Part shown: positions 20,372-62,318 of the stretch, one piece after another | How the letters are laid out: every line of letters starts with the position of its first letter | Numbering within the stretch: position 1 is the first letter of the stretch | DNA from: an uncultured Candidatus Saccharibacteria bacterium | Lineage (GTDB): Bacteria; Patescibacteriota; JAQUNI01 | NCBI GenBank assembly: GCA_964555185.1 | Contig: CAZKRD010000001.1 | Location: forward strand, 303,272 to 367,271 | Direction: 5' to 3' | Length of the DNA stretch: 64,000 nt | Translations under genes and position numbers: made by a program | The notes under the pieces: generated by a model | Seen by the model: the letters and a program-made list of their open reading frames with translations, nothing else | Told to the model about the DNA's origin: nothing | The model's database searches: none

Positions 20372-20417
20372 CCTGAGGACTTCGGCTGAGCTCAGTCGAA
20401 CGCCCTCGGGACGAAGG
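20372..20417 (+). repeat. 46-bp palindromic element, copy 1
   Basis: cctgaggacttcggctgagctcagtcgaacgccctcgggacgaagg. Its reverse complement matches 57257-57302 at 45 of 46 positions. It lies between murB and secA. Confidence 0.8.
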
Positions 20418-20451
20418 TTTAGTTTGTATTTTTGAGATTTGACTTTTATTT

Positions 20452-26926: not shown

Positions 26927-27230
26927 AAATAGAAAGTTTAAATCCTAAATCCTAAATCCTAAATCCTAAACAATTTCCCGCCTTCGCTCACGAGCTTCGG
27001 CGGACAGGCCCGCCTTGCCCCGCTTCGCGAGGTGAGCCGCAAAGCGAGGCAGGCAAAGTTCAAATGTTCAAAACCCGGCCGTACGCCTTGGCGTAGGCAA
27101 GGATTTGTTTAGAGTTTAGGCGTTGGGATTTAGGATTTTTTGAACCTTTAAGAATCCTATTTGTTTTAGATTGGGCGGTTGTGGTATAATGTCTATAAAG
27201 ATATTGTTCAATAAATCAAAATAAAACAAA
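26927..27230 (+). repeat. Heptamer-periodic palindromic element (aatccta x4 ... tttaggatttaggatt) enclosing a GC-rich structured core
   Basis: aatcctaaatcctaaatcctaaatcctaaa ... ccgccttcgctcacgagcttcggcgg ... ggcaggcaaagttcaaatgttcaaaac ... tttagagtttaggcgttgggatttaggatt. Confidence 0.6.
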
Positions 27231-31004: not shown

Positions 31005-31171
31005 CTCCAATCACCAAGATACAATAACCAAGTTACAAACAATAACCAATTATCCAATCACCAATCTGCCTTGCCCCGTCTCGCCGAGGCAGACGACAGA
31101 CAGGTAACCAAACCGTTTGATTATTGGTTATTGAAATTTGTTTGTTTCTTGTTTCTTGGTTATTGGTTATT
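31005..31171 (+). repeat. ~140-bp heptamer-periodic palindromic element (word caccaataacca / tggttattggtg), copy 1, with a 40-bp GC-rich insertion
   Basis: About 85% identical to 34191-34322. The internal hairpin is caatcaccaat...aaccaaaccgtttgattattggttattg. Confidence 0.7.
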
Positions 31172-38433: not shown

Positions 38434-38505
38434 CGGGGATTGGCCTAATGGTAAGGCGCACGATTCGGGTTCGTGAGACTCCGGGTTCAAATCCCGGATC
38501 CCCGA
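38434..38505 (+). tRNA. tRNA-Pro (anticodon CGG); CCA not encoded
   Basis: Hand-folded. Acceptor stem CGGGGAT/ATCCCCG (7 bp). D arm gcct-aatggta-aggc. Anticodon stem cacga/tcgtg with loop ttCGGgt (U33, G37). Variable loop agact. T arm ccggg-ttcaaat-cccgg. Discriminator A. Confidence 0.8.
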
Positions 38506-38515
38506 CAAAGGTGAT

Positions 38516-38588
38516 GATCAAGTCTTGCTTTTTGGTATTTTAAGAAAAACTAAAACATCAAAATATAAGATTTGATCTCATTTATCCT
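38516..38588 (+). repeat. Island repeat family A, copy 1 (immediately 3' of tRNA-Pro)
   Basis: gatcaagtcttgctttttggtattttaagaaaaactaaaacatcaaaatataagatttgatctcatttatcc. Related copies start at 41545, 45031 and 51906, with a partial copy at 46001. Confidence 0.6.
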
Positions 38589-38637
38589 TTCCTAGACCAT
38601 TGAAAAAAACTTCAAAAAAAAGGTAAATTAAAATAAT

Positions 38638-39324
38638 ATGCCACCATCTGGAAAACACAAAGCCGAAGGCCACAGAAAGCGACTCAGAGAAAGGTTTTTA
38701 CAGGGCGGATTTGATGGTTTTCTTGATTATGAAATAGTAGAGTTGCTTTTAACTTTGGGTACTCCTAGAAAAGACTGTAAACAAATGGCAAAAGAGGCGA
38801 TAAAAAAGTTTGGAGGATTGCGGGCCGTGCTTGATGCTCAGTCTGAAGAATTGCAGCAGATTAAAGGCATCGGCCCTTTTAATGTTTTTGGTATCAAGCT
38901 TTTTCAGGCGGTATCCGAACGTTACGCCAAAGAACAGATACCGAAAAAAATTACACTTAATACGTCAGAAGCAGTAGCTAGTTTTTTACAAAAATCTATT
39001 GGCCGAGAAAAGAAAGAGCACTTTGTTATGTTATCTTTAGACGCGCATAATAATTTGATCAAGATTAGTAATATATCCACTGGTTCGTTGACCGCGAGTA
39101 TTGTCCATCCACGGGAAGTTTTTAAGGAAGCAATTAAAGCTTCTTCCGCGCAAATTATAGTTGCCCATAATCACCCATCAGGAGATACTGAACCTTCTCC
39201 GGAGGATGTCGCGCTTACTAGGCGACTTGAAGAAGCGGCCAAAATATTTGGCATCGGACTTCTTGATCATCTTATTATTACCAAAGATAAATTTTCTAGC
39301 TTAAAAGAACAAAATTTAATGTAA
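38638..39324 (+). CDS. RadC-like JAB/MPN-domain protein
   Basis: 228 aa. The HhH-like N-terminus and C-terminal JAMM-like motif IIVAHNHPSGDTEPSPEDVALTRRL are characteristic of the RadC/UPF0758 family. Confidence 0.7.
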   Translation: MPPSGKHKAEGHRKRLRERFLQGGFDGFLDYEIVELLLTLGTPRKDCKQMAKEAIKKFGGLRAVLDAQSEELQQIKGIGPFNVFGIKLFQAVSERYAKEQIPKKITLNTSEAVASFLQKSIGREKKEHFVMLSLDAHNNLIKISNISTGSLTASIVHPREVFKEAIKASSAQIIVAHNHPSGDTEPSPEDVALTRRLEEAAKIFGIGLLDHLIITKDKFSSLKEQNLM

Positions 39325-39328
39325 ATTT

Positions 39329-39676
39329 ATGTCCGATATAAAAAATCTTACAGAAAAAATTAATAAATTTCGGGATGAGCGAGATTGGAAGCAATTCCAT
39401 AATCCTAAAGATGTTGCACTCTCCCTTGCTTTAGAGGCGGCAGAGGTTATTGAACATTTTCAATGGAAGAATAATCAAGAAGTAGCCAAGTATATTAAGA
39501 GCAATAAAGATGATATAGGAGAAGAGCTAGCAGACGTATTGTATTGGGTTTTACTTATGTCTCACGATCTTGAAATAGATATAAAGGAGGCGCTCGAAAA
39601 AAAGATTGCAAAAAATGAAAAAAAGTATCCCATAGACAAATCAAAGGGCAAGCACAATAAATACAACAAACTTTAA
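39329..39676 (+). CDS. MazG-like nucleotide pyrophosphohydrolase
   Basis: 115 aa. EAAEVIEHFQWK...EELADVLYWVLLMSHDLEIDIKEALEKKIAKNEKKY fits the all-alpha MazG/NTP-PPase fold with the EExxD/E motif. The start is 4 nt after the RadC stop. Confidence 0.7.
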   Translation: MSDIKNLTEKINKFRDERDWKQFHNPKDVALSLALEAAEVIEHFQWKNNQEVAKYIKSNKDDIGEELADVLYWVLLMSHDLEIDIKEALEKKIAKNEKKYPIDKSKGKHNKYNKL

Positions 39677-39679
39677 ATT

Positions 39680-41539
39680 ATGATCCTGTATGAAAATACA
39701 ATAGAGCATTTTAACGAAGATGTAATGCAAAATTGCGTTGCGGATCGTGCGGCTGAAAAATACCGAGCATATTATAATAGGGATCCTGGTAATTCCGAGT
39801 ATCGGTCTTGGAGAAACTCACTTGCCATTCTAAATAATAGTTTTATCTATGCCGGATTAAAAAATAACCATATAATTATAGAATATGAACTTCCTTATTC
39901 ATCACGCAGAATTGATGTTTTGCTTTTTGGAAATGATCCTGATGGAGAAGAAAATATTGTCATGATGGAACTCAAGCAATGGTCGAATGAAAACGTTGAA
40001 GACTCTGCATCAGAAGGTAATGTAATTGTTGATTACGGGAAATTCAAAAAAGAACAAGTGCACCCTGCGTTGCAAGTGCAGGGATATCATTTTGGTTTAA
40101 AAGATTTTCTTGGAATTTTTGAACAAAAAAACGCTCCAGAGCTAAGTTCATGTGCATATGCACATAATTATTCAAAAGAAGATAGCACTGTTCTTTTTTT
40201 ACCTAAATTTTCTAGTACAATCAAGACATTTCCTTTATTTGCGAAGGAAGATGCTGTTGAATTGGGGCGGTATCTTAAAGATCGACTTCAAGGTGGCGGT
40301 GGGAAAATAATCTTTGAGCGTTTTGCAAGAAGCGCAATTAAGCCATCTAAAAGACTTCTTGATCATACGTCAGAGATGATAAATGAACAGCAAATTTTTA
40401 ATTTAATTGATGAGCAAATTACTGCCTATAATGCGATAATGCACAAAGCCAAACAGCTTGCGAAAACAAAGCAGAAAGCTGTAGTCATAGTAAAAGGTGG
40501 TCCAGGTACGGGAAAATCTGTGATAGCATTAGAAGTTATGGGAGAACTTTTACGACAAGGGAAAAGGGTTATGCATGCCACAGGATCATCCGCGTTTACA
40601 AATACATTAAGGAAGATAGTGGGTATGCGAGCAAGAAATCTCTTTAAATTTTTTAATAGCTTTATTGCAACGGAGCCAGATTCTTTTGATGTGCTTATTT
40701 GTGATGAAGCCCATCGTATAAGAGAATCGAGCATGAGTAGATATACTCCAAGGGCTCAAAGAACAAATTTGCCTCAGATAGATGAATTGCTAAGAGTAGC
40801 AAAATTAAATATTTTCTTTTTAGATGAGCATCAAATCGTACGGCCAAGTGAAATTGGCGGCATTGCGATGCTTAAGGAGGCCGTTAAACGTTTTGGTATT
40901 AATGATAAAAATGTAGCTGAATTTGAATTAAAAACACAATTTCGTTGTTCTGGATCAGATGCTTATTTACAATGGCTTGATCATGTTTTAAGGATTCGTG
41001 ATACGGAAATGAGAGAGTTTGATGCAAAAATGGAATTTCGTATTTTCGATAACCCTTCAGATATGATGTCTGAAATTCGAAAGAGGAACAAGGAAACATC
41101 AAACTCAGCTCGCATAGCAGCGGGGTTTTGTTGGCCTTGGAGCAAACCAAACCCGGAAGGTTCATTAGTAAAAGATGTAAAAATTGGAAATTTTGCAATG
41201 CCATGGGAGAAGAAAGATCAATTTTGGAAATGGGCAACAGATGATTCAGGCATGGAACAGGTTGGTACTATATATACGGCTCAGGGATTTGAATTTGATT
41301 ATATTGCTGTAATTTTCGGTAACGATTTAGTTTTTGATCCGGTTGAAAATAAATGGCAGGCAGTGCCGGAGAATTCTCATGATACACAAGTAAAACGCAA
41401 TAACCCAAATCTCACGAATCATTTAAAAAACGTTTATCGCGTGCTTCTTTCTCGGGCCCATAAGGGCGTGTATGTTTATTTTATGGATAAAGATACAGAA
41501 AAATATTTTAAGAGTTATTTACCGGAAATAAAATCATGA
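39680..41539 (+). CDS. DUF2075-type nuclease-helicase (N-terminal PD-(D/E)xK nuclease plus P-loop SF1-like ATPase)
   Basis: 619 aa. N-terminal PD-(D/E)xK-like motif IEYELPYSSRRIDVLLFG...IVMMELKQWS; Walker A KGGPGTGKSVIALEV; DEAH-like ICDEAHRI. The start is 3 nt after the MazG stop, so the three genes look like one operon. Confidence 0.65.
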   Translation: MILYENTIEHFNEDVMQNCVADRAAEKYRAYYNRDPGNSEYRSWRNSLAILNNSFIYAGLKNNHIIIEYELPYSSRRIDVLLFGNDPDGEENIVMMELKQWSNENVEDSASEGNVIVDYGKFKKEQVHPALQVQGYHFGLKDFLGIFEQKNAPELSSCAYAHNYSKEDSTVLFLPKFSSTIKTFPLFAKEDAVELGRYLKDRLQGGGGKIIFERFARSAIKPSKRLLDHTSEMINEQQIFNLIDEQITAYNAIMHKAKQLAKTKQKAVVIVKGGPGTGKSVIALEVMGELLRQGKRVMHATGSSAFTNTLRKIVGMRARNLFKFFNSFIATEPDSFDVLICDEAHRIRESSMSRYTPRAQRTNLPQIDELLRVAKLNIFFLDEHQIVRPSEIGGIAMLKEAVKRFGINDKNVAEFELKTQFRCSGSDAYLQWLDHVLRIRDTEMREFDAKMEFRIFDNPSDMMSEIRKRNKETSNSARIAAGFCWPWSKPNPEGSLVKDVKIGNFAMPWEKKDQFWKWATDDSGMEQVGTIYTAQGFEFDYIAVIFGNDLVFDPVENKWQAVPENSHDTQVKRNNPNLTNHLKNVYRVLLSRAHKGVYVYFMDKDTEKYFKSYLPEIKS

Positions 41540-41544
41540 AAGAG

Positions 41545-41632
41545 AATTGATGGTCAAATTTTACTTTCTGACATTTTAAGAAAGATTAAAACATCAAAAT
41601 ACAAAATTTAAGCCTATTTATCTGGCCCCATT
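41545..41632 (+). repeat. Island repeat family A, copy 2
   Basis: aattgatggtcaaatttt...cattttaagaaagattaaaacatcaaaatacaaaatttaagcctatttatc. It shares the gattgatggtcaa prefix with copy 4 and starts 6 nt after the DUF2075 stop. Confidence 0.55.
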
Positions 41633-41781
41633 CTCTCCCTTTGTCATCTCCGACTTGATCGGAGATCCAGGGTTTTAGAGCAAGAATCCTGGATTCCCGC
41701 TTTCGCGGGAATGACAAGCGTGTCGTGGCTTCACAGGATTCCTTCCAAGTTTCTCCGACTATGGAGTATTTGTACACATAT

Positions 41782-41810
41782 AAAAAAACAGAGTCGACCC
41801 CATTTTGCAC
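41782..41810 (+). repeat. Repeat family C motif AAAAAACAGAGTCGACCCCATTTTGCAC, copy 1
   Basis: Related copies start at 44390, 45004, 47440 and 54951; a degenerate second copy lies at 41820-41845. Confidence 0.55.
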
Positions 41811-41927
41811 TAGCTAGGGAAAAACAGAGCCGGTCCCATTTCATCAATTTGGTGCGGGGGGAGGTGAGATCTAGGGTTGGAATCTCCAAAAATGTTATAA
41901 TAAAGATAAGTTTTTCAATAAATAAGC

Positions 41928-41987
41928 AAAAATGGGGTTAGGTCTTGAATAGTGAATTGTTAAAATCAGAAATGTCTCCATTTTTTT
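41928..41987 (+). repeat. MITE-like element family B, copy 1 (forward, 3' truncated)
   Basis: aaaaatggggttaggtcttgaatagtgaattgttaaaatcagaaatgtctccattttttt. Inverted termini: AAAAATGGGG / CTCCATTTTT. Confidence 0.6.
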
Positions 41988-41999
41988 AAAAATTTCGTT

Positions 42000-42377
42000 A
42001 TGATACAAATTGATACAATTTATAATCGTTATGGAGAACCGAGATTGCGATTACGCAGCAATGGTCGTTTGGTTGATTTTTCTGGACGAAATATCGGATT
42101 TTTAAGTGGAGATAATCTTTATAATGATGAAGGTCGCCATGTTGGTTGGTATGAAGGAGGTATAATGAGAGATCATGGGGGTTTTTGTACGGGCTTCGGG
42201 GAAAATGTGACTGACCAACTTCATCCCCTGCTTCCTGTGCGACAATTGAAGCCTGTTCCAGCTTTACCCCGATTCGAGCCGTTAAGACCCCCAAAGCGTT
42301 TATCCCCATTAAAGCCTTACAAATCTTTTAGATGGTCAAACTTCGACCCGATAGATTTGTTTTTAATGTATGAATAA
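42000..42377 (+). CDS. Hypothetical protein (internal GR.IGFLSGDNLYNDEGRHVGWYEGG repeat-like segment)
   Basis: 125 aa, no recognisable family. It overlaps the next ORF by 8 nt. Confidence 0.35.
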   Translation: MIQIDTIYNRYGEPRLRLRSNGRLVDFSGRNIGFLSGDNLYNDEGRHVGWYEGGIMRDHGGFCTGFGENVTDQLHPLLPVRQLKPVPALPRFEPLRPPKRLSPLKPYKSFRWSNFDPIDLFLMYE

Positions 42378-42801
42378 TATAAGCAAAAAAGGTGAGGGTA
42401 ATAGAAACCAAATCAGCTCAAAGAGTGCCAAGCCCGAACTATCTTTAGGTTATACACAAAGAGATTTAAAAAACCCTGGTGTTGCAAAGGGAATATTGGC
42501 AGAAAATCAAAGGCTCCAAGGAGAGGCAAATCAACTGAAGAAGTCATTAAGGTTAACACAGGACAGTTTTGAGAAGTTAAGGCAAAAATATCATACCAGA
42601 GATAAAGAAAATGCAGTAATGAAAGAGAAGTACTCACTTCTTTCGAGGTTTGAAATTATAAAGTCACTTTCTTTAATCGGCGTTGGTTCGGCGATTTCAT
42701 TTTTAATAGATAAAAAATATTTAACAGCGGCGGCGACTGGTATTATATCATTCATTCTATTGCTAGTTGTAACACGTAAAGATACTAAGGTAAAAAGATA
42801 A
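42370..42801 (+). CDS. Hypothetical coiled-coil protein with C-terminal TM helix
   Basis: 143 aa; coiled-coil segment then a hydrophobic tail LIGVGSAISFLI...IISFILLLVV. Confidence 0.35.
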   Translation: MNNISKKGEGNRNQISSKSAKPELSLGYTQRDLKNPGVAKGILAENQRLQGEANQLKKSLRLTQDSFEKLRQKYHTRDKENAVMKEKYSLLSRFEIIKSLSLIGVGSAISFLIDKKYLTAAATGIISFILLLVVTRKDTKVKR

Positions 42802-42821
42802 TCTTCTATTGCATTTGAGGG

Positions 42822-42878
42822 GAAATGGGATCAGGTCTTGAATAGTGAATTGTTAAAATCAGAAACGTCCCCGTTTTT
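42822..42878 (+). repeat. MITE-like element family B, copy 2 (forward)
   Basis: ggaaatgggatcaggtcttgaatagtgaattgttaaaatcagaaacgtccccgttttt. Confidence 0.6.
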
Positions 42879-42916
42879 CTTAGCCCTAAAGTTTTAATTG
42901 CGAAATATATTCTCGT

Positions 42917-43390
42917 ATGAAAAAATCAACTATTGATTTATGTGTTTGCATGATACTTTTTAACAAAAAATTTGAATTTTTGCTTGTTAAAAAGTTTCAT
43001 GAAACTGAAAAGATAGGAGGTCTTTGGGTTCTTCCGGGCGGAGGCGGCGGTTTTGCCGATGCCAGAAGTTTTTCAGCTTTGGCAAAGCAAGAGGTGGAGT
43101 ATGATTTGAATGAAAATTATAATAAAAATAAAAAGAAAGGTCAATGGATTAACTTTGAGGTTGAGGAGGGCGCTATTAAAATTTTCAAGACTCAACCTAG
43201 CGAAAAAAAAATTATAATTTATACTTACTGCAACAATTACGAAGGGACTCCCACTCCGAATAATAAGGATATAATAGACTTTCGTTGGTTTCCTATTAAG
43301 AAGATTCGGGAGTTTGGCATGGTTGGGAAAATCGCTTACGGAAATCATTTAGTGATTTATGATTTTTATAGAAAATTTATAGAAATTTAA
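42917..43390 (+). CDS. NUDIX-fold-like protein with degenerate Nudix box (possibly inactive)
   Basis: 157 aa. GGLWVLPGGGGGFADARSFSALAKQEVEYDL resembles the Nudix box GX5EX7REUXEEXGU, but the catalytic E and R are replaced. Confidence 0.35.
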   Translation: MKKSTIDLCVCMILFNKKFEFLLVKKFHETEKIGGLWVLPGGGGGFADARSFSALAKQEVEYDLNENYNKNKKKGQWINFEVEEGAIKIFKTQPSEKKIIIYTYCNNYEGTPTPNNKDIIDFRWFPIKKIREFGMVGKIAYGNHLVIYDFYRKFIEI

Positions 43391-43401
43391 GATGAGAAAT
43401 C

Positions 43402-43436
43402 AAATGGGGACGTTTCTGATTTATTTGGTACAGGTC
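43402..43436 (-). repeat. MITE-like element family B, copy 3 (reverse orientation, partial)
   Basis: aaatggggacgtttctgatttatttggtacaggtc. Confidence 0.4.
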
Positions 43437-43482
43437 GGAAGATCAGAATCAACTAAGATGAAATGAATCAAAAAATTAATCT

Positions 43483-44247
43483 ATGACCAAGCAACCGGCA
43501 CTGGTGGGGATTGTGCCGAGAAAAAATCTCTGGGATGTGATTTGCGAGAAAAGATGGTATCACATCCCGGTGAAGTCGGCTCCCGACAATGTTTCTCTCG
43601 CGGAATTTATCGCCTTTTATTTTCCTAAAATATTCGGCGAAGAGGAAAGATACAAGGTGAATCATTATGCCCAGGTGCGGGCAGTGGATATTGTTAAGAG
43701 AGTCAAGCTTTTCCCAGGGGAGCCAAAACACAAAGGGGCGCATGAAGATTACTTTCAATTTCATCTTGGGGAGATTAAGAGATTGCCGCATCCCATCCCC
43801 AGTAAGAGATGGAGAAGAATTGTTCATATTCCCACCAGTCGTCAAAAATTATTCAGCGCGGAAGAGATTAATGATCTTTACGACACCAGCCCCTTGGAAG
43901 AAAAAGTGTACCGGGAAATGAAGAGACGGCGCATAGACGCCGAAAGACAGGTGTTTGTCCAAGTCGCAGGCCGGGTGTACTGCCTAGACTTTGGAATCTT
44001 TTGTCGCAATGGCGACATAGATGTTGAATGTGATGGTGAGAAATACCATATTTTACCTGATGCCTTAACCAGGGACAGAGAGCGCAACAATCAATTAACC
44101 AGCTTTGGCTGGCATGTTTTGAGGTTTTCGGGAAAAGAAATCAACTGGACTCTGGCAAATTGCTTCAAAGTTATTGAGAAAACGATTAGTAATCTGGGTG
44201 GACTGAGGCAAAAGCTTGATAAGTCGGTTAGTATGTTGTTAAGTTAA
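43483..44247 (+). CDS. Protein with C-terminal DUF559 (Vsr/PD-(D/E)xK-like endonuclease) domain
   Basis: The C-terminus YCLDFGIFCRNGDIDVECDGEKYHILPDALTRDRERNNQLTSFGWHVLRFSGKEI matches the DUF559 pattern D...E.DG..H...D..R...L...GW.VLRF. The N-terminal ~150 aa are unknown. Confidence 0.55.
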   Translation: MTKQPALVGIVPRKNLWDVICEKRWYHIPVKSAPDNVSLAEFIAFYFPKIFGEEERYKVNHYAQVRAVDIVKRVKLFPGEPKHKGAHEDYFQFHLGEIKRLPHPIPSKRWRRIVHIPTSRQKLFSAEEINDLYDTSPLEEKVYREMKRRRIDAERQVFVQVAGRVYCLDFGIFCRNGDIDVECDGEKYHILPDALTRDRERNNQLTSFGWHVLRFSGKEINWTLANCFKVIEKTISNLGGLRQKLDKSVSMLLS

Positions 44248-44283
44248 AACAATGGGTATATTATAAAAAATTAAGGGAATACG

Positions 44284-44364
44284 GGGGCAGGTTTTGTATT
44301 TTGGAAAAAATGGAGACGTTTCTGATTTATTTTTGCTAAATTCACTATTGTATGACCTGACCCC
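44284..44364 (-). repeat. MITE-like element family B, copy 4 (reverse orientation, full length ~81 bp, TIR GGGGYCAGGT/GACCTGACCCC)
   Basis: gggggcaggttttgtattttggaaaaaatggagacgtttctgatttatttttgctaaattcactattgtatgacctgacccc. Confidence 0.65.
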
Positions 44365-44389
44365 GTTTGTTGACCCCATTTGTATCCAT

Positions 44390-44417
44390 AAAAAAACAGA
44401 CTCGACCTCATTTTCCC
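44390..44417 (+). repeat. Repeat family C, copy 2
   Basis: aaaaaaacagactcgacctcattttccc, 40 nt upstream of the GNAT start. Confidence 0.5.
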
Positions 44418-44456
44418 TATAATTAAAGCAGGTTATTCTTTATCAAAATTGTTTGT

Positions 44457-44969
44457 ATGCAAGAAAAATATAGTTTCAAAAAGGCAACCTTGAAAGATTT
44501 AGATAAGTTCTTTATTTTCTTTTCTCAGAGCCTTAAAAAACAGTTCCCTCGATATACTCTAAAAACAAGAGATTATTTTATTCGGAAAGAGTATTGCTTA
44601 CAATCTTTAAAGGCTCGATTGAAGAGTAAAGACATTATCATCTATTTAGCAATGCAGGATAAGGAGGTAGTAGGCTATTTTGTGACTGGTGTAATTGTTG
44701 GCGGTGTATGTTTGGCTTTATGGCTGGCAGTATCTAAGAAGCACCAGGGGCAGGGAATTGGCTCACAGCTTTTGCAGATGTGGGAAAAAGATGCCAAGGC
44801 CTTGGGTATACACAAACTTCATCTTTGGACTGACAGAAGAAATTTGAGCTTTTACAAAAAAAGAGGATTCAAATTGCTCGGCAAGGTATCTAAAAACTAC
44901 TACGGCGTTGATGATTATTTATTCTATAAAAGTATTCAGAAGCCCATTGAAAAGAATTTTTTGAAATAA
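44457..44969 (+). CDS. GNAT-family N-acetyltransferase
   Basis: 170 aa. Motif A is HQGQGIGSQLLQMWEKDAKALGIHKLHLWTD, followed by FYKKRGF. Confidence 0.7.
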   Translation: MQEKYSFKKATLKDLDKFFIFFSQSLKKQFPRYTLKTRDYFIRKEYCLQSLKARLKSKDIIIYLAMQDKEVVGYFVTGVIVGGVCLALWLAVSKKHQGQGIGSQLLQMWEKDAKALGIHKLHLWTDRRNLSFYKKRGFKLLGKVSKNYYGVDDYLFYKSIQKPIEKNFLK

Positions 44970-45003
44970 ATATAGTGAGTTGCGGGATGGGATAATTAGA
45001 GTG

Positions 45004-45031
45004 AAAAAACAGAGTCGACCCCATTTTGCAC
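45004..45031 (+). repeat. Repeat family C, copy 3
   Basis: aaaaaacagagtcgaccccattttgcac, 35 nt after the GNAT stop. Confidence 0.55.
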
Positions 45032-45094
45032 TTGTTTTGCGGCATTTTAAGAAAACTGAAAACATCAAAATACAAAATTTGATCCCATTTACAT
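45031..45094 (+). repeat. Island repeat family A, copy 3 (fused to a family C motif)
   Basis: cttgttttgcggcattttaagaaaactgaaaacatcaaaatacaaaatttgatcccatttaca. Confidence 0.55.
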
Positions 45095-45098
45095 CAGA

Positions 45099-45767
45099 AT
45101 GGAACAAAAAAATAAAGTAAAATTTTGGCAGGTTAGCAAGGTGTTGATTGTTATAATACTGCTCTCATTGTTTTTGAAGTGGCTTTTGTCTGTGATGGGC
45201 TCGGATGAGTTTAGGTTGGTTATCGAAAGAGTGGGTATTTTGGGGCCGTTGATTGTTATTATGTATATAGTGGTTTCGCACATTGTAGCCCCACTGGCGG
45301 GCTTGCCTGGTGTTTTGTTAGGAGTTTCTATTTATGGCATTGTGAAAGCAGTCTTTTTTATATACATCGCGGGATTGGTAAGTTGTGCCATTAATTTTTG
45401 GATAAGCAGAAAATTTGGCAGAGAGTGGGTTGCCAAGCTCGCTGGCAAAAAAACAATGAAGCAGGTTGATGATTTTGTGGAGGTAGCGGGTGTTAAGGTG
45501 TTGATTGCGGGCAGGTTATTTGGGTTTGCTTTGTTTGAGATTATCTCTTATGCGGTTGGATTGACTAATATGAGCTTTAGAAAGTATTTTGTTATTACTG
45601 CGGTCTTTTCGGCAATACCGGTTGCTGTTTTCGGCTATGCTTTTAAAAATGTAGATTTTCTTTCCGGGGCTGGGCAGATTTTGTGGATTGGGGCTATCCT
45701 TATTGTTGGCGCTGTGTTCGTTTTTATGATAAAAAGATATATAGAAAGGCAAAAGTCAAAAACTTAA
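45099..45767 (+). CDS. DedA/TVP38/TMEM64-family membrane protein
   Basis: 222 aa polytopic. FWISRKFGREWVAKLAGKK...VLIAGRLFGFALFEIISYAVGLTNM is typical of the DedA/SNARE-associated family. Confidence 0.6.
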   Translation: MEQKNKVKFWQVSKVLIVIILLSLFLKWLLSVMGSDEFRLVIERVGILGPLIVIMYIVVSHIVAPLAGLPGVLLGVSIYGIVKAVFFIYIAGLVSCAINFWISRKFGREWVAKLAGKKTMKQVDDFVEVAGVKVLIAGRLFGFALFEIISYAVGLTNMSFRKYFVITAVFSAIPVAVFGYAFKNVDFLSGAGQILWIGAILIVGAVFVFMIKRYIERQKSKT

Positions 45768-45779
45768 TTGAGAGAAATA

Positions 45780-45861
45780 GGGGTCAGGTTTTGGGAAAAA
45801 CGGAAAAATGGAGACGTTTCTGATTTATTTTTGCTAAATTCACTATTCAAGACCTGACCCC
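45780..45861 (-). repeat. MITE-like element family B, copy 5 (reverse orientation, full length ~82 bp)
   Basis: ggggtcaggttttgggaaaaacggaaaaatggagacgtttctgatttatttttgctaaattcactattcaagacctgacccc. Roughly 90% identical to copy 4. Confidence 0.65.
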
Positions 45862-45895
45862 ACTGACCCCCCACTGACCTGACCCCACTGACCCT
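45853..45895 (+). repeat. Short GC-rich microsatellite (cccactgac-like units) abutting MITE-like copy 5
   Basis: gaccccactgaccccccactgacctgaccccactgaccc. Confidence 0.5.
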
Positions 45896-46000
45896 AAGTT
45901 ATTGTTTTGGTTTTGTTTTAGAACAAGACATTTTTAGCTTTTATGTTATTATTCTTTTTTCGTTAAAAAGGTTTATTATAAATTATAATAAGAGGATTTA

Positions 46001-46030
46001 GGATCAAGTCTTGCTTTTTCGAATTTTTAG
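46001..46030 (+). repeat. Island repeat family A, partial copy
   Basis: ggatcaagtcttgctttttcgaatttttag, upstream of purD. Confidence 0.45.
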
Positions 46031-46129
46031 ATCGGATTGACAAAGCCACTGCATGGGATGATAATATAGATGAAATGTACATACACAAACAATTGGCCTA
46101 AATAACCGAAATGTTAGAGAGGAGGCAAA

Positions 46130-47401
46130 ATGAGGATTCTAGTGATTGGAGGGGGCGGAAGGGAACACACCTTGGTTTGGAAAATGGCCCAGAGTCCATT
46201 AGTTGATAAGATTTATTGCATTTCGGGCAATGCGGGAATCGCCGCATTGGCAGAGTGTGAGAAAATAGATGTAGATGGTGCGCTGGAGCCCATAGCAGAT
46301 TTTGCGCTGGATAACAGGATAGACCTGACGGTTGTTGGCCCCGAAGATCCGCTTGCAAACGGGATTGTTGACCTCTTTGCCGCTAGTAGGCTGAGAGCTT
46401 TCGGCCCGGACCAGCTAGCAACACAGATCGAGGCAAGTAAAATATTCTCAAAGGAGTTGATGTGGAAGTATGGCATTCCAACCGCCAACGCCGAGATATT
46501 TGACAACCACGAGGAGGCCACCGCATACATTCGTGATGCAGGTGTACCTATAGTGGTGAAGGCAGATGGTTCAGCTAAGGGGAAAGGCGTTATCGTTTGC
46601 CGTGATGAATTGCAGCAGGCTCTGGATGCTGTTAACACGATTATGGTGGAGAAGGCGTTTGGGAATGCTGGCAACAGGATTCTTGTAGAAGAATGTCTGG
46701 AAGGCGAGGAAGCGTCATTCATCGTTTTTACCGACGGTGAGAATATCTTACCCATGTCCTCTTCGCAGGATCACAAGCCCATATATGACGGCGATCGCGG
46801 GCTGAATACCGGAGGAATGGGAGCTTATTCGCCAGCGCCGGTAGTTACGCCAGAAGTATACGACCTTATCATGGAAACCATAATGCTGCCGACCGTAAAA
46901 GGCATGGCTGCTGAAGGGTATCCATACAAAGGTGTGTTGTATGCCGGCTTGATGATAGCCGATGGCAAACCAAAGGTTATAGAATTCAACGCACGGTTTG
47001 GCGATCCTGAAAGCCAGGCAGTACTACCAAGATTGCAAAGTGATATTGTGCCGGTAATGGAGGCCTGTATCGACGGTACACTGGACCAGGCGCAACTGGA
47101 ATGGTCGGACGAGGCGGCCGCATGTGTTGTAATGGCCTCTGGTGGGTACCCTGTAAAATACAAGAAAGGCAAAGTGATAACTGGCCTGGACGTGGCTGGT
47201 GCTATGGAAAACGTAATGGTTTTTCATGCTGGTACCGCGCGACAGGGGGGCAAGATCGTCACTAACGGCGGCAGGGTCCTTGGTGTGACAGCATTGGGTA
47301 AGGATATCGAAGAGGCGGTTATCACTGCTTACGATGCCGTAGGCAGGATATCCTTTGAGGGCGCATACTTCCGAAACGATATTGCCTATCGTGCCCTCTA
47401 A
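46130..47401 (+). CDS. purD: Phosphoribosylamine--glycine ligase (GAR synthetase)
   Basis: 423 aa. N-terminus MRILVIGGGGREHTLVWKMAQS and a central ATP-grasp fold, collinear with PurD over the full length. Strong GGAGG RBS. GC content is visibly higher than the flanking DNA, and long spurious antisense ORFs appear. Confidence 0.85.
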   Translation: MRILVIGGGGREHTLVWKMAQSPLVDKIYCISGNAGIAALAECEKIDVDGALEPIADFALDNRIDLTVVGPEDPLANGIVDLFAASRLRAFGPDQLATQIEASKIFSKELMWKYGIPTANAEIFDNHEEATAYIRDAGVPIVVKADGSAKGKGVIVCRDELQQALDAVNTIMVEKAFGNAGNRILVEECLEGEEASFIVFTDGENILPMSSSQDHKPIYDGDRGLNTGGMGAYSPAPVVTPEVYDLIMETIMLPTVKGMAAEGYPYKGVLYAGLMIADGKPKVIEFNARFGDPESQAVLPRLQSDIVPVMEACIDGTLDQAQLEWSDEAAACVVMASGGYPVKYKKGKVITGLDVAGAMENVMVFHAGTARQGGKIVTNGGRVLGVTALGKDIEEAVITAYDAVGRISFEGAYFRNDIAYRAL

Positions 47402-47439
47402 TTTTTTCATGGGGTCAACTCTCATTTTTCGATTTACTT

Positions 47440-47468
47440 AAAAAATAGAGTCGACCCATTTTTTTTCT
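47440..47468 (+). repeat. Repeat family C, copy 4
   Basis: aaaaaatagagtcgacccatttttttt, 39 nt after the purD stop. Confidence 0.5.
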
Positions 47469-47520
47469 TTCATTTTTTAAGAAGGTGAAGGGCGGATGGA
47501 TCGCTCTTTGGGTGATTTTT

Positions 47521-47529
47521 TGCTATAAT
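47521..47529 (+). promoter_or_regulatory. Extended -10 element TGcTATAAT upstream of recQ
   Basis: A perfect TATAAT with an upstream TG, 31 nt before the ATG at 47560. Confidence 0.35.
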
Positions 47530-47559
47530 CAAAGAATCTCAATCTTTCTTAAAATAAAA

Positions 47560-49737
47560 ATGAAAAAATTACTTAAAGTTCACTTTGGCTATGATCAATT
47601 CCGGCCCCTGCAGGAAGAAATCATTAGTAATGTTCTGGCCCTGAAAGACACTTTTGTCCTGATGCCCACTGGAGGCGGAAAATCTCTCTGCTACCAGCTT
47701 CCTGCAATGAAATTTTCCGGTTTGACTCTGGTGGTTTCCCCGCTTATCTCCCTGATGAAAGATCAGGTGGATTCTTTGAAAGCCAACGGCATTGAGGCGG
47801 AATTTTTGAACTCTTCGCTTCTTCCCCGGGACGCTATGGATATCCGGCAAAAAGTCCAAGCCGGCAAAACTAAGATACTGTATGTCGCGCCGGAGCGATT
47901 GGCTCTTGATTTTTTCCGTAGATTTTTGCATTCCCTCAAGTTAAGCCTTATTGCCATTGATGAAGCCCATTGTATCTCGGAATGGGGACATGATTTCCGC
48001 CCTGAATACCGTAACCTTAAATTTTTCAAAAGAGAGTTTCTCAAGGTTCCTGTTATCGCCCTGACCGCTACGGCTACGCCGAAGGTCCGGGCAGATATTA
48101 TTAAACAACTTTCCTTAAGAAAAGCGAAGCAGTTTGTTTCCAGTTTTGACCGGGAAAATTTGACCTTCTCGGTTCTGCGGAAGAAGAATGCTTTTGAAAA
48201 AGTTATGGCTCTTTTAAAGAGGCACAAAGGCGGATCGGCCATTATCTATTGTTTTTCCCGGCGCGAGACCGAAGAAATTGCCGCCAACCTGAAGATCGAA
48301 GGCATTAAAGCCCTGCCTTATCACGCCGGATTGCCCCGGGAGATCCGCAAGCGCAACCAGGAACAATTCATCAAAGACGAGGCGCGGGTCATTGCCGCGA
48401 CTATTGCCTTTGGCATGGGCATTGACAAGCCTGATGTCCGTCTGATCGTCCATTACACTTTTCCGAAAACTTTGGAAGGATATTACCAGGAAATAGGGCG
48501 CGCAGGCCGCGACGGCCTGCCGGCTGAATGCGCCCTTCTTTATTCGTACGGAGATATCCGCAAGCATGAATTCTTTTTGGGGCAGATGGAAAATACGCAG
48601 GAACAGGAGAATAGCCGCCAAAAACTTAACCAGGTTGTGGAATACTGCCAGGGAAGAGGATGCCGCCGGAAATATCTGCTCCAATATTTCGGAGAGGAGT
48701 ATCCAAGGAAAAACTGCAAGGGTTGCGACAGCTGTCTTCGGCCTAAAATAGAATATGAGGCCACCGAGATTGCCCGGAAGATCCTTTCTTGCATTCTGCG
48801 CACTGAATCCCGGTTCGGTAAAAAATATGTCATTGATCTGCTTCGAGGCAAGGCCACCGCGCGGATAACCGGCAACGGCCACCAGACTCTTTCAGTCTTT
48901 GGGATTGTCCGGGATTTGACCATTGAAGAAATGAGGGAGGTGATCAATGACCTGATTTCTCTCGGCTATCTATCTTCTTCTGAAGGAATGTATCCCACTC
49001 TTTCGGTCACAGCTCACGGCATTCAATTTCTTAAGGAAAAACAGAGCCTTACCCTTTCCCGGATAACGCAGGATCTCCTGGATTATGAAGAGGAAGAATC
49101 AGCCGGAGTGGAAGCGCAGTATGATATTCGGCTCTTTGAGAACTTGCGCGTCCTGCGAAAGCAGATCGCGGATGAGCGGGGAGTGCCGCCTTTTGTTATT
49201 TTCGGCGATGCTGCTCTATATGCAATGGCTCGGTATTTTCCGGTCGATCCAGATAATTTTTTAAGAATTCAGGGAGTGGGAGAAAGAAAGCTGGAAAGTT
49301 TTGGCAATTCTTTTATGGATGTTATTTTAAAATATGTTAAGGAGAACAAGCTTAAGCCGGAAATGGTTCCTGACCGGAGCAGAATTAAACGCAACCGGGC
49401 GCGCAGAAAAGTTAAGGCAGGTTCAACCTATCGGGAAACAAAGGAGCTGATTGATCAAAAGACCTCCCTGCGGGAGGTCGCCAGGGCGAGGGGATTAAAG
49501 CCGGGAACGATCATCAGCCATCTGGAAAAACTGGTTATAGCCCAGGCAAAGATTGATCTTGATTATCTCAAACCGTCCGGTAAAGAATGTCGGGAAATCC
49601 AATCCGCTTTTCAAAAATGCGGATACAAATGGCTTAAGCCTGCTTATGATTTTTTGGATGAGAAATATACCTACGACCAGATCCGCCTGGTCAGAGTGAT
49701 AAGTAGCATCCGGCAATCCCGGAGAGAGGCAGGGTAG
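47560..49737 (+). CDS. recQ: ATP-dependent DNA helicase RecQ (helicase, RQC zinc-binding, winged helix and HRDC-like C-terminus)
   Basis: FGYDQFRPLQEEII, P-loop MPTGGGKSLCYQLPA, DEAH (IDEAHCISEWGHDFRPEY), and a four-cysteine RQC (CRRKYLLQYF...CKGCDSC). The track start at 47485 is GTG, so the ATG at 47560 is used. An extended -10 TGcTATAAT sits at 47521-47529. Confidence 0.85.
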   Translation: MKKLLKVHFGYDQFRPLQEEIISNVLALKDTFVLMPTGGGKSLCYQLPAMKFSGLTLVVSPLISLMKDQVDSLKANGIEAEFLNSSLLPRDAMDIRQKVQAGKTKILYVAPERLALDFFRRFLHSLKLSLIAIDEAHCISEWGHDFRPEYRNLKFFKREFLKVPVIALTATATPKVRADIIKQLSLRKAKQFVSSFDRENLTFSVLRKKNAFEKVMALLKRHKGGSAIIYCFSRRETEEIAANLKIEGIKALPYHAGLPREIRKRNQEQFIKDEARVIAATIAFGMGIDKPDVRLIVHYTFPKTLEGYYQEIGRAGRDGLPAECALLYSYGDIRKHEFFLGQMENTQEQENSRQKLNQVVEYCQGRGCRRKYLLQYFGEEYPRKNCKGCDSCLRPKIEYEATEIARKILSCILRTESRFGKKYVIDLLRGKATARITGNGHQTLSVFGIVRDLTIEEMREVINDLISLGYLSSSEGMYPTLSVTAHGIQFLKEKQSLTLSRITQDLLDYEEEESAGVEAQYDIRLFENLRVLRKQIADERGVPPFVIFGDAALYAMARYFPVDPDNFLRIQGVGERKLESFGNSFMDVILKYVKENKLKPEMVPDRSRIKRNRARRKVKAGSTYRETKELIDQKTSLREVARARGLKPGTIISHLEKLVIAQAKIDLDYLKPSGKECREIQSAFQKCGYKWLKPAYDFLDEKYTYDQIRLVRVISSIRQSRREAG

Positions 49738-51331: not shown

Positions 51332-51431
51332 ATGTGAATTATGCTAATTATTTCGCTTGTTGATTTCATAGCCTTTAGTTGCCATCTATGGAAAGGGAAA
51401 TGGGGTCAGGTTTACATTTCTATAAACAATT

Positions 51432-51854: not shown

Positions 51855-51905
51855 GCAAAGCCAGATTTTAGTCGATAAAGGAGGTTGGGGTCGAGTTTTG
51901 GGAGG

Positions 51906-51968
51906 ATTGATGGTCAAGCCTTGCTTTTTGGCATTTCGAAAAAAACTAAAACATCAAAATCAAAGCGC
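51906..51968 (+). repeat. Island repeat family A, copy 4 (candidate distal boundary of the island)
   Basis: gattgatggtcaagccttgctttttggcatttcgaaaaaaactaaaacatcaaaatcaaagcgc. About 44 of 50 positions match copy 1. Confidence 0.55.
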
Positions 51969-52065
51969 TTTTTTTATTTGACGAAAGTCTTTTTTATTTA
52001 TATTATTCAGATAGATGGTTTTCCAAAAATTTAAATAAATACAAAAACAATTTAATCAAAAATTC

Positions 52066-57162: not shown

Positions 57163-57256
57163 GGTTAAACTTTACAAACCTATAGAGCTCATATTGTTTT
57201 TAACTTTCAGAGAATAATTGAGCTTTTTTTATACTTTTGAAAAATTAAAAAATAAA

Positions 57257-57302
57257 CCTTCGTCCCGAGGGCGTTCGACTGAGCTCAGCCGAAGTCTTCA
57301 GG
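57257..57302 (-). repeat. 46-bp palindromic element, copy 2 (inverted orientation)
   Basis: On the + strand it reads ccttcgtcccgagggcgttcgactgagctcagccgaagtcttcagg, with the internal near-palindrome CTTCGGCTGAGCTCAGCCGAAG. It lies upstream of ftsA. Confidence 0.8.
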
Positions 57303-57457
57303 TCGAGGAAAATTCAATAAAAATTAAAAAATAAGAAATAAACAAAAAATAAGAAATAAAAAACAAAAAACACTCCCTATTATTTGCCAAACTGAAACAA
57401 AAGTTGTAAAATGATCATAGAAGCGCTGTTTTTACAGTATTGTTTTTGGTTATCAAT

Positions 57458-62173: not shown

Positions 62174-62318
62174 AGTGCAAATTTTTAATTTTTAGTTTTT
62201 AATTTTTATTTAATTTTTAAACATTGATCTTAAATTTTACTGTTTAAGAACTAAACCATTAGAAATTAAACATTCAATAAAAATTAAGAATTAATAATTA
62301 AGAATTGATAATTAGGAA

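What the first reader, a model, noticed from the sequence alone, without database searches (positions are those of the whole stretch)
41928..45861. MITE-like element (family B, 60-82 bp, terminal inverted repeats GGGGYCAGGT / GACCTGACCCC, internal palindrome AAAATGGAGAC/GTCTCCATTTT) in five copies and both orientations between cassettes
Copies lie at 41928-41987 (+), 42822-42878 (+), 43402-43436 (-, partial), 44284-44364 (-) and 45780-45861 (-). The two full-length reverse copies are about 90% identical over ~80 bp and carry 10-11-bp terminal inverted repeats. The forward copies lack the last ~25 bp. Each copy lies in a cassette junction. Such miniature inverted-repeat elements imply a cognate transposase somewhere in the genome, or RNA-level function as hairpins. 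No transposase gene occurs in this window.
Basis: seen in the sequence. Interest (0 to 1): 0.6.

Follow-up and report, generated by a model that had tools for sequence, protein, structure and literature searches.

The report
REPIN-like hairpin repeats of Y1 transposases
The five short repeats are real, partly decayed copies of a known kind of hairpin-forming mobile DNA whose arms flank RAYT/TIRYT-type tyrosine (Y1) transposase genes in other bacteria, here confined to a variable gene island of a small uncultured bacterium in which no such transposase was found.

Summary
The five copies exist at the stated coordinates and are far beyond chance. They are not classical MITEs.

**What they are**
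- The conserved unit is a 20-24 nt arm, AAATCAGAAAYGTCYCCATTTT.
- It is paired with a second, diverged arm, AAATGGGGTCAGGTCTTGAAT.
- The same 20-mer forms inverted doublets in more than 120 metagenome contigs and in MAGs of several phyla. The order is always left arm, loop, right arm (78 against 1).
- In seven loci it flanks a 220-235 aa Y1/HUH transposase of the RAYT/TIRYT type.
- Family B is therefore a REPIN-like "TIR dimer or cluster" family carrying the published GGGGWSAS hallmark.

**Limits**
- No Y1 gene occurs in the 81 kb of scaffold I could read.
- All arms of this type lie in or beside a variable island between tRNA-Pro and purD.
- A relative with 90% identical PurD has different genes in that island but keeps a B copy upstream of purD.

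**Verdict:** new member of a known kind, modest interest.

The parts
41928..41987 (+). B1: a doublet. Diverged left arm AAAATGGGGTTAGGTCTTGAAT (41930-41951), 12-nt loop, canonical right arm AAATCAGAAATGTCTCCATTTTT (41962-41987). It lies 12 nt upstream of the Bflower gene ATG at 42000.
   Evidence: 28.4 bits. The hairpin is weak: RNA z -1.2, DNA z -0.2.
42822..42878 (+). B2: the same doublet layout as B1 and 91% identical to it. It lies between the SLATT-like ORF and the NUDIX ORF.
   Evidence: (28.3 bits)
43401..43436 (-). B3: a lone canonical arm (AAATGGGGACGTTTCTGATTT on the + strand). A truncated remnant of a partner arm (GATCAGAATC) follows it. It lies between NUDIX and the DUF559/REase ORF.
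   Evidence: (30.4 bits)
44284..44364 (-). B4: a three-arm cluster. On the + strand it reads outer arm GGGGCAGGTTTTG, canonical arm AAAAATGGAGACGTTTCTGATTT, loop, then arm GTATGACCTGACCCC. It forms a stable hairpin.
   Evidence: 30.2 bits. RNA -25.3 kcal/mol, z -3.0. DNA z -4.5.
44352..44419 (+). A run of three right-type arm ends directly after B4: GACCTGACCCCGTTT, GTTGACCCCATTT and the family A arm AAACAGACTCGACCTCATTTT.
45780..45861 (-). B5: a three-arm cluster like B4. The outer pair GGGGTCAGGTTTTG / CAAGACCTGACCCC encloses one canonical arm. It is the most stable hairpin of the five.
   Evidence: 31.5 bits. RNA -31.4 kcal/mol, z -4.8. DNA z -4.1. An ortholog lacking the outer arm is at L145 6835-6905.
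45852..45893 (+). A tract of reiterated arm ends, (CTGACCCCA)n, following B5. It is absent from the related genome L145.
41783..41840 (+). Two family A arms, AAAAAACAGAGTCGACCCCATTTT and AAAAACAGAGCCGGTCCCATTTC. The first matches the canonical B arm at 17 of 21 positions.
   Evidence: (D9, D14)
45004..45093 (+). A family A arm (45004-45032) overlapping the right half of a D1 hairpin (45019-45093), which ends in TTTGATCCCATTT.
   Evidence: (D1, D9)
47409..47465 (+). A family A doublet between purD and recQ: ATGGGGTCAACTCTC, loop, AGAGTCGACCCAT. It is conserved in L145.
   Evidence: DNA hairpin z -4.3.
38512..38586 (+). A D1 hairpin directly after tRNA-Pro. Its arms GATCAAGTCTTG / AAGATTTGATC resemble the diverged B arm. 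Further D1 copies are at 41548-41622, 46002-46031 (left part) and 51908-51982.
   Evidence: (D1, D6). DNA z -2.7. Copies also in L145.
51397..51415 (+). A lone left-type arm, GAAATGGGGTCAGGTTTAC. A similar GGGGTCGAGTTTTGGGA lies at 51887-51903.
38434..38506 (+). tRNA-Pro(CGG), the probable left edge of the variable island that holds the repeats.
   Evidence: The island content differs in L145.

Best explanation
Family B is a local, partly decayed population of REPIN-like elements: single arms, dimers and three-arm clusters. Its arms are terminal inverted repeats of the kind that flank RAYT-like Y1 (HUH) tyrosine transposase genes. This is the TIRYT type, corresponding to TnpA_Y1 subclass 2.1 and RAYT group 1.

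**Shown**
- Each copy carries a canonical arm (AAATCAGAAAYGTCYCCATTTT) and usually a diverged arm (AAATGGGGTCAGGTCTTGAAT).
- Both arm types share the outer AAATGG(G/A)G(A/T)C with repeats that flank Y1 transposase genes in other genomes.
- B4 and B5 fold into stable hairpins.

**Inferred mechanism**
- A Y1 transposase acting in trans recognises the arms on single-stranded DNA, for example at a replication fork.
- It cuts and rejoins them without duplicating the target, so doublets spread into intergenic DNA, often next to existing copies.
- The copies here differ by 9-24% and some are truncated, so most are probably old and no longer mobile.
- Any present role, such as RNA 3'-end hairpins or recombination joints in the variable island, is secondary and untested.
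For: **Distribution of the 20-mer core**
- Several of the 18 hits in a 185,579-genome scan have an inverted partner nearby. These include three contigs of one Gammaproteobacteria MAG, a Planctomycetia MAG, a Eubacteriales MAG and a Nealsonbacteria MAG.
- 78 adjacent pairs have the order left arm then right arm, against 1 in the reverse order. Loops span 7-93 nt. 33 of 78 are perfect complements, and 16 positions are changed identically in both arms.
- Hits are enriched at contig ends, 22 of 120 loci against about 7% expected, as multi-copy repeats are.

**Link to a transposase**
- In L034, L033, L104, L025, L044, L045 and L057 the arms flank a 220-235 aa ORF.
- That ORF matches Pfam Y1_Tnp at E 5e-16. 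Its only NCBIfam hit is REP-associated tyrosine transposase, at 68-74 bits over the whole profile.
- It carries the motifs NH[VFI]H, WQGR and RYVERN[AP]. These fit subclass 2.1 in Table 1 of PMC6006769.
- PMC3733652 describes such genes as flanked by inverted repeats that share GGGGWSAS and occur as singles, dimers or groups.
- The window's diverged arm reads GGGGTCAG, an exact fit. The canonical arm reads GGGGACGT or GGAGACGT.
- AT-rich homologues are flanked by AAAATGGTGTCAGGAACCATTTT (L149), AAATTGGGTCAGGC (L150) and AAA(T/A)GGGGACAGGCTAC doublets (L148, an Atribacteria single-cell genome).

**Layout and boundaries**
- The left-left-right arm layout of B4 and B5 recurs in L010, L011, L046 and L075.
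- Similarity between copies ends at the arms, so this is not a duplication of a larger segment.
Against: - No Y1 transposase or remnant occurs in the window, in 17 kb more of the same scaffold, or in 18 kb of the related genome.
- No homologue on a 706,972-bp contig appeared among the listed hits of two protein searches. Only the best 120 of each were shown.
- All five copies lie within 4 kb, and 7 of 8 ATGGGGTC sites in 81 kb lie between 41.8 and 51.4 kb. REPIN populations are usually dispersed.
- The two arms of a B doublet are unlike each other. B1, B2 and the L145 ortholog do not fold better than shuffles.
- The foreign loci were retrieved with a pattern derived from B, so their match to the arm is by construction. 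Only the partners, the layout and the transposase link are independent evidence.
- No mobility was observed.
Confidence: 0.62

Rival explanations
1. The repeats (B, D1 and A) are the joints of a cassette array. They serve as recombination sites through which small accessory genes are swapped in and out of the island between tRNA-Pro and purD. The exchange would run by homologous recombination between shared joints or by an unidentified site-specific or HUH enzyme.
For: - Every intergenic space from 41.5 to 46.1 kb holds such a repeat, and the genes between are small accessory types: Bflower, SLATT-like, NUDIX, DUF559 nuclease, GNAT and VTT.
- In the relative L145 (PurD 90% identical) the genes upstream of purD are entirely different, yet they are again separated by D1 and B repeats. 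Synteny resumes right after a B copy.
- In L007 a pair of arms encloses BrnT/BrnA and a DUF2283 gene pair, in the same configuration as around the transposase gene elsewhere.
Against: - No recombinase or integrase was found among the 20 ORFs run through Pfam between 31.5 and 58.7 kb. Five ORFs of at least 110 aa in that span were not run.
- B copies occur in both orientations.
- Doublets are self-contained within each spacer, so genes flanked by arms follow trivially.
- Intergenic hairpins commonly sit at island borders without being the cause.
- Only one comparison genome was available.
Confidence: 0.15
2. They are ordinary regulatory hairpins (terminators, RNA stabilisers or promoter-leader elements) copied locally. 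Their likeness to transposase-associated repeats would then be coincidental.
For: - B4 and B5 lie 36 and 12 nt after stop codons of + strand genes and fold strongly on the + strand.
- B1 and B2 lie 12 and 38 nt before start codons and contain TGTTAAAAT, an extended -10-like word.
- In L007 the arm sits between a TTGACA-like box and the ribosome-binding site of three genes.
- The copies are clustered in 4 kb.
Against: - No T-run follows B4 or B5, and the consensus scan finds neither terminators nor promoters at any copy.
- B1 and B2 do not fold better than shuffles.
- A 20-nt match of 17-20 positions, with the same doublet layout, to repeats that flank Y1 transposase genes in many genomes is not plausible by chance.
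Confidence: 0.1
3. It is a classical MITE derived from a DDE-transposase insertion sequence, as first proposed.
For: B4 and B5 have 10-nt terminal inverted repeats and a size of about 80 bp.
Against: - There are no target-site duplications.
- The inverted ends are absent from three of the five copies.
- The conserved part is internal to those ends.
- The arms match repeats that flank Y1, not DDE, transposase genes.
Confidence: 0.03
4. They are integron attC sites of a chromosomal cassette array.
For: They are imperfect inverted repeats of 57-82 nt between small, co-oriented promoter-poor genes.
Against: - There are no RYYYAAC / GTTRRRY core sites.
- The orientations are mixed.
- No integron integrase was found among the 20 ORFs run through Pfam between 31.5 and 58.7 kb.
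Confidence: 0.02

Closest known systems
TIRtrons and TIR repeat families of TIRYT transposases (Di Nocera et al. 2013, PMC3733652), equivalent to TnpA_Y1 subclass 2.1 (Quentin et al. 2018, PMC6006769) and RAYT group 1 (Bertels et al. 2017, PMC5581495)
   Same: - The arms carry GGGGWSAS or a near match close to their outer end.
- They occur as singles, dimers and clusters in intergenic DNA.
- Arms of the same sequence flank ~220-aa Y1 genes with NHVH, WQ and Y...N motifs.
   Different: - No TIRYT gene was seen in this genome.
- The two arms of a doublet are of different subtypes.
- The copies are confined to one variable island.
- The host appears to be a small-genome uncultured bacterium (an inference), a setting not reported in the papers read.
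- One 20-nt arm is kept almost unchanged across several phyla.
REPINs and REP/BIME elements with RAYTs of groups 2 and 3 (Bertels and Rainey 2011, PMC3116915; Nunvar et al. 2010, PMC2817692)
   Same: - Two inverted short repeats around a spacer form a long hairpin.
- They are non-autonomous, intergenic and make no target duplication.
- The associated transposase gene is itself flanked by the repeats.
   Different: - Each arm here is not itself a palindrome with a 5' GT[AG]G foot.
- The transposase lineage is different.
- The copy number seen here is small and local, not in the hundreds.
IS200/IS605 insertion sequences and their palindrome-associated miniature derivatives
   Same: Y1/HUH chemistry, presumed recognition of DNA hairpins on single strands, and insertion without duplications.
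   Different: - The associated protein is longer (220-235 aa against ~150).
- Its tyrosine motif is Y...N(P/A), not Y...Q.
- No tnpB gene lies beside it in the fetched loci where it is flanked by arms.
- The arms are true inverted repeats rather than distinct left and right subterminal hairpins.
Classical bacterial MITEs (for example Correia elements)
   Same: Small size, inverted ends, intergenic location and both orientations.
   Different: No target-site duplication and no link to a DDE transposase.
Integron attC sites
   Same: Imperfect palindromes at cassette junctions.
   Different: No conserved core sites, mixed orientation and no integrase.

Membership tests
TIR repeat family of TIRYT-type Y1 transposases | The arm carries the GGGGWSAS motif near its outer end. 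| tested here: met
   The diverged arm reads GGGGTCAG, an exact fit (B2 reads GGGATCAG, B1 GGGGTTAG). The canonical arm reads GGGGACGT or GGAGACGT, 6 of 8 and 5 of 8. The motif is taken from PMC3733652.
TIR repeat family of TIRYT-type Y1 transposases | Arms of the same sequence flank a RAYT-like Y1 transposase gene in inverted orientation. | tested here: met
   This is met in other genomes only. For the canonical arm: L034, L033, L104, L025, L044 and L057. For the near-identical diverged arm: L149 and L150.
TIR repeat family of TIRYT-type Y1 transposases | A cognate transposase gene is present in the same genome. | tested here: inconclusive
   None was found in 81 kb of a scaffold of 706,972 bp or in 18 kb of the relative. 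The rest of the genome could not be read.
TIR repeat family of TIRYT-type Y1 transposases | The repeats occur as single, dimeric or grouped copies in intergenic DNA. | tested here: met
   B3 is a single arm, B1 and B2 are dimers, and B4 and B5 are three-arm groups. All are intergenic.
REPIN (sensu Bertels and Rainey) | Two inverted REPs around a spacer form a hairpin. | tested here: met
   B4 and B5 reach z -3.0 to -4.8. B1 and B2 fold only weakly.
REPIN (sensu Bertels and Rainey) | Each REP is a short palindrome with a 5' GT[AG]G foot. | tested here: not met
   The arms have no GTAG or GTGG foot and no self-complementary structure. The feature is taken from PMC6006769.
REPIN (sensu Bertels and Rainey) | A large dispersed population, tens to hundreds of copies per genome. 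| tested here: inconclusive
   There are five copies in 4 kb and none in the other 77 kb seen. The whole genome was not available.
Classical DDE-type MITE | Terminal inverted repeats bounded by a target-site duplication. | tested here: not met
   The flanks of all copies differ.
Integron attC | RYYYAAC and GTTRRRY core sites, uniform orientation, and an adjacent IntI. | tested here: not met
   No core sites are present and orientations are mixed. No integrase was found among the 20 ORFs run through Pfam between 31.5 and 58.7 kb.
Intrinsic terminator | A G+C-rich stem followed by a T-run. | tested here: not met
   The scan finds none at any copy. B4 is followed by GTTTGTTG and B5 by ACTGACCC.
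Any Rfam RNA family | A match to a curated covariance model. | tested here: not met
   Only tRNA-Pro reaches the gathering score. At E up to 10 only chance microRNA-like hairpin matches appear.

The most novel reading that the evidence does not exclude
The hairpin arms are not just litter. Together with the D1 and A hairpins they would be the working joints of a cassette-exchange system in a variable, defence-like island of an ultra-small bacterium. Single genes bounded by Y1-transposase-type arms would be cut out and pasted as single strands, giving an integron-like gene shuffler built on HUH chemistry. The L007 toxin-antitoxin module bounded by the same arms would be another instance.
Probability: 0.1. 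Interest if true: 0.8.

Novelty: new member of a known kind. Interest (0 to 1): 0.35.

Why it matters
- It turns an unexplained local repeat into a member of a described but little-studied class, the repeats tied to RAYT group 1 / TIRYT transposases.
- One 20-nt arm of that class is kept almost unchanged in contigs attributed to several phyla. This fits the more IS-like, horizontally moving behaviour reported for that group.
- If the host proves to be a CPR-type bacterium with its own Y1 gene, it would extend REPIN-like systems to ultra-small genomes.
- The sharing of repeats between two relatives whose island genes differ gives a concrete place to test whether such hairpins promote gene exchange.

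Tried and rejected
- **Rfam:** at gathering and at permissive thresholds, on the window and on canonical foreign copies, nothing appeared but tRNA-Pro and chance microRNA hairpins.
- **Promoter and terminator scan:** no sites at the repeats, and counts equal those of shuffles.
- **Target-site duplications:** none.
- **attC and dif-like sites:** no core motifs by reading the sequence.
- **Viral contigs:** no match to the arm.
- **Plasmids:** blastn with a canonical doublet found nothing.
- **Full-text search for the arm sequence:** it returned only unrelated primers.
- **Solved structures:** phmmer of the transposase found no relative.
- **Finding the genome's own transposase:**
  - Scaffold extensions held none.
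  - Two protein searches were inspected for a hit on a 706,972-bp contig. None appeared among the listed 120 of each.
- **Naming the organism:** exact-cluster look-ups of ribosomal proteins gave no named members.
- **More distant purD relative (L147):** it proved to be an unrelated organism and was dropped.
- **Tm-like idea that the DUF559 nuclease, which sits where the transposase sits in TIRtrons, is the cognate enzyme:** considered, but not supported by anything beyond position.

Full report
**1. The observation**

The most conserved stretch, AATCAGAAACGTCTCCATTTT, occurs five times in the window with at most two mismatches. None is expected in shuffled sequence. The copies lie at 41964 (+), 42857 (+), 43401 (-), 44307 (-) and 45805 (-).

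B1 and B2 are 91% identical. B4 and B5 are 85% identical over 82 columns, not about 90%. All copies are intergenic, between co-oriented small genes:

| Gene | Start |
|---|---|
| Bflower | 42000 |
| SLATT-like | 42370 |
| NUDIX | 42917 |
| DUF559/REase | 43483 |
| GNAT | 44457 |
| VTT | 45099 |
| purD | 46130 |

Two details of the finding are wrong.
- The GGGGYCAGGT/ACCTGACCCC ends exist only in B4 and B5.
- The "internal palindrome" is one word seen on opposite strands in oppositely oriented copies, not a palindrome within a copy.

No copy has a target-site duplication.

**2. Anatomy**

Each copy is built from arms of two related kinds.
- The canonical arm is AAATCAGAAAYGTCYCCATTTT.
- The diverged arm is AAATGGGGTCAGGTCTTGAAT, written in the opposite sense.

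The copies combine these arms as follows.
- B1 and B2 are dimers: diverged arm, 12-nt loop, canonical arm.
- B3 is a lone canonical arm with a stump of a partner.
- B4 and B5 are three-arm groups. An outer pair of diverged arms encloses one canonical arm.

Only B4 and B5 fold clearly better than shuffles. As RNA they reach -25 and -31 kcal/mol, z -3.0 and -4.8. As DNA they reach z -4.5 and -4.1.

The other repeat families nearby are built on the same theme.
- Family A (AAAAAACAGAGTCGACCCCATTTT) matches the canonical arm at 17 of 21 positions. It forms a full doublet at 47409-47465.
- The 75-nt D1 hairpins have arms GATCAAGTCTTG / AAGATTTGATC.

**3. The same arm elsewhere**

A scan of 185,579 genomes with AATCAGAAAYGTCYCCRTTT gave 18 loci, about the number expected by chance. 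Several of them, however, had an inverted partner a few tens of bases away:
- three contigs of one Gammaproteobacteria MAG;
- a second Gammaproteobacteria MAG;
- a Planctomycetia MAG;
- a Eubacteriales MAG;
- a Nealsonbacteria MAG;
- an unclassified MAG.

Among all fetched loci:
- 78 adjacent pairs had the order AAATGGGGAC...CTGATT, loop, AATCAG...GTCCCCATTT, against one in the reverse order;
- loops ranged from 7 to 93 nt;
- 33 pairs were perfect complements;
- at 16 positions both arms carried the same change, which keeps the hairpin.

Hits lie within 120 nt of a contig end in 22 of 120 loci, against about 7% expected. Multi-copy repeats that break assemblies behave this way. Variants of the arm (GGAAT, GAAAT) occur inside one cluster (L010), so they belong to one family. 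The left-left-right layout of B4 and B5 recurs in L010, L011, L046 and L075.

**4. The associated gene**

Where two arms lie 400-1500 bp apart, three of them enclose an ORF of 211-235 aa (L034, L033, L104). tblastn found the same ORF in L025, L044, L045 and L057, in each case bounded by arms.

The protein has these properties.
- It matches Pfam Y1_Tnp (IS200-like) at E 5e-16.
- Its only NCBIfam hit is REP-associated tyrosine transposase, at 68-74 bits over the full profile, just under the 80-bit equivalog cut-off.
- It carries NH[VFI]H, WQGR and RYVERN[AP].

These features and its length fit TnpA_Y1 subclass 2.1 of Quentin et al., which those authors equate with RAYT group 1 and with the TIRYT proteins of Di Nocera et al.. 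Di Nocera et al. report that TIRYT genes are flanked by terminal inverted repeats sharing GGGGWSAS. They also report that such repeats form moderately abundant families of single, dimeric or grouped copies. Bertels et al. find group 1 the most IS-like of the true RAYT groups.

The family is very large.
- At least 7,998 clusters at 90% identity.
- 56,323 representatives at 50% identity with E up to 0.001.
- Named members are from Steroidobacteraceae, other Gammaproteobacteria and Thermoguttaceae.

**5.

I picked AT-rich homologues by amino-acid composition and fetched their loci.

| Locus | Flanking repeat |
|---|---|
| L149 | AAAATGGTGTCAGGAACCATTTT on both sides, inverted |
| L150 | AAATTGGGTCAGGC / GCCTGACCCAATTT, duplicated on each side |
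| L148 | AAA(T/A)GGGGACAGGCTAC doublets |

L148 comes from an Atribacteria single-cell genome according to PMC6281690. The window's diverged arm, AAATGGGGTCAGGTC, differs from the first two repeats at one or two positions. Both arm types of family B therefore have counterparts flanking Y1 transposase genes.

**6. What is missing here**

No Y1 transposase or fragment of one is present in any of the following:
- the window;
- the 17 kb of the same scaffold that I could add on either side;
- a profile search of all six frames of those 81 kb;
- 18 kb of the related genome.

The window is bases 8,708-72,707 of a 706,972-bp scaffold, so most of the genome is unseen.

Within the 81 kb the canonical arm occurs only in the five B copies. 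Seven of eight ATGGGGTC sites lie between 41.8 and 51.4 kb.

**7. Comparison with a relative**

A JGI contig encodes a PurD that is 90% identical. It is syntenic with the window from 46024 onward at 85-92% nucleotide identity. Upstream of purD, however, it carries different genes: an HD-domain protein, a 1,515-aa nucleotidyltransferase-like protein and two small ORFs.

Those genes are again separated by D1 hairpins and by a half B copy (L145 5395-5521). A B copy sits just upstream of purD (L145 6835-6905 and L146 100-175).
- This ortholog keeps the canonical arm and loop almost unchanged.
- It lacks the outer arm and the (CTGACCCCA)n tract of B5.

Three things follow.
- The interval from tRNA-Pro (38434-38506) to purD is a variable island.
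- At least one B copy is older than the split of the two genomes.
- The arm clusters turn over locally.

**8. Interpretation**

The best reading is that family B is a REPIN-like TIR family of the TIRYT kind. Arms are shown to be associated with Y1 transposase genes in other genomes. I infer that such an enzyme created and spread them here, acting on single-stranded DNA without target duplication.

It rests on established knowledge of IS200/IS605 Y1 enzymes and is not shown for TIRYT.

The divergence between copies, the truncated B3 and the weak folding of B1 and B2 suggest mostly inactive copies.

Rival readings are kept at lower weight:
- **Cassette-array joints.** Supported by the comparison with L145 and by the arm-bounded toxin-antitoxin module in L007.
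- **Ordinary regulatory hairpins.** No support from the consensus scan.
- **DDE-type MITEs.** No duplications, and the arms match repeats that flank Y1 transposase genes.
- **attC sites.** No core sites, mixed orientation and no integrase among the ORFs run.

**9. Novelty and limits**

The kind of element is known, so I file this as a new member of a known kind. Three points are worth recording.
- One 20-nt arm is conserved across contigs attributed to several phyla.
- The repeats are confined to a variable island.
- The host is possibly an ultra-small bacterium. That is an inference from the small, one-strand gene layout. No taxonomic name could be obtained.

I found no paper in the held library linking RAYT-type repeats to CPR bacteria. 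That is an absence in one library only.

The retrieval of foreign loci used a pattern derived from B. Their match to the arm is therefore not independent evidence. The inverted partners, the fixed layout, the contig-end enrichment and the transposase association are independent.

Noticed in passing
window 38512-38586, 41548-41622, 45019-45093, 46002-46031, 51908-51982; L145 655-698, 5451-5521: D1 is a 75-nt hairpin repeat, always on the + strand. It follows gene groups, and the first copy lies directly after tRNA-Pro. Its arms resemble the diverged arm of family B.
   Followed up: partly
window 41783-41840, 44391-44419, 45004-45032, 47409-47465: Family A arms (AAAAAACAGAGTCGACCCCATTTT) are a third variant of the same arm theme. 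A full doublet lies between purD and recQ and is conserved in the related genome.
   Followed up: partly
window 38434-46129 against L145 1-7015: The interval from tRNA-Pro to purD is a variable island with defence-like and accessory genes: RadC, MazG-like, Schlafen-type helicase, Bflower, SLATT-like, NUDIX, DUF559 nuclease, GNAT and VTT. A relative with 90% identical PurD has entirely different genes there.
   Followed up: partly
window 45852-45893: A tract of reiterated arm ends, (CTGACCCCA)n, follows B5. It is absent from the relative and its origin is unknown.
   Followed up: no
window 47485-49737 against L145 8397-10287: recQ is one 750-aa ORF in the window. In both related contigs it is called as 522 aa plus 66 aa.
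   Followed up: no
window 46130-47401: The nearest named relatives of purD (70-76% identity) are labelled Candidatus Poribacteria. One such contig (L147) belongs to an unrelated organism. The gene may have been acquired horizontally.
   Followed up: no
window 20357-20433 and 57241-57317: A 77-nt G+C-rich sequence occurs in inverted orientation in two intergenic regions 36.8 kb apart, at 90% identity. It is another small repeat of unknown nature.
   Followed up: no
window 9330-9480, 26940-27138, 31007-31166, 62180-62306: Long intergenic palindromes are built from short low-complexity units such as AAATCCT and ATTGGTT. They are unrelated to family B and occupy the spacers outside the island.
   Followed up: no
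L007 832-2117, 5826, 6993: In a low-GC MAG a pair of arms encloses BrnT/BrnA and a DUF2283 gene pair. Single arms also sit 10-15 nt upstream of the ribosome-binding sites of three genes, two of them (2098, 6993) preceded by TTGACATTTGACA.
   Followed up: partly
L144 1-1175: The V-type ATPase A subunit of this genome carries an intein with a LAGLIDADG domain.
   Followed up: no
L002 (Logan contig, 1,528 bp): An independent assembly of the same sample breaks inside B4 and inside B5. Repeats that share long words would cause this.
   Followed up: no
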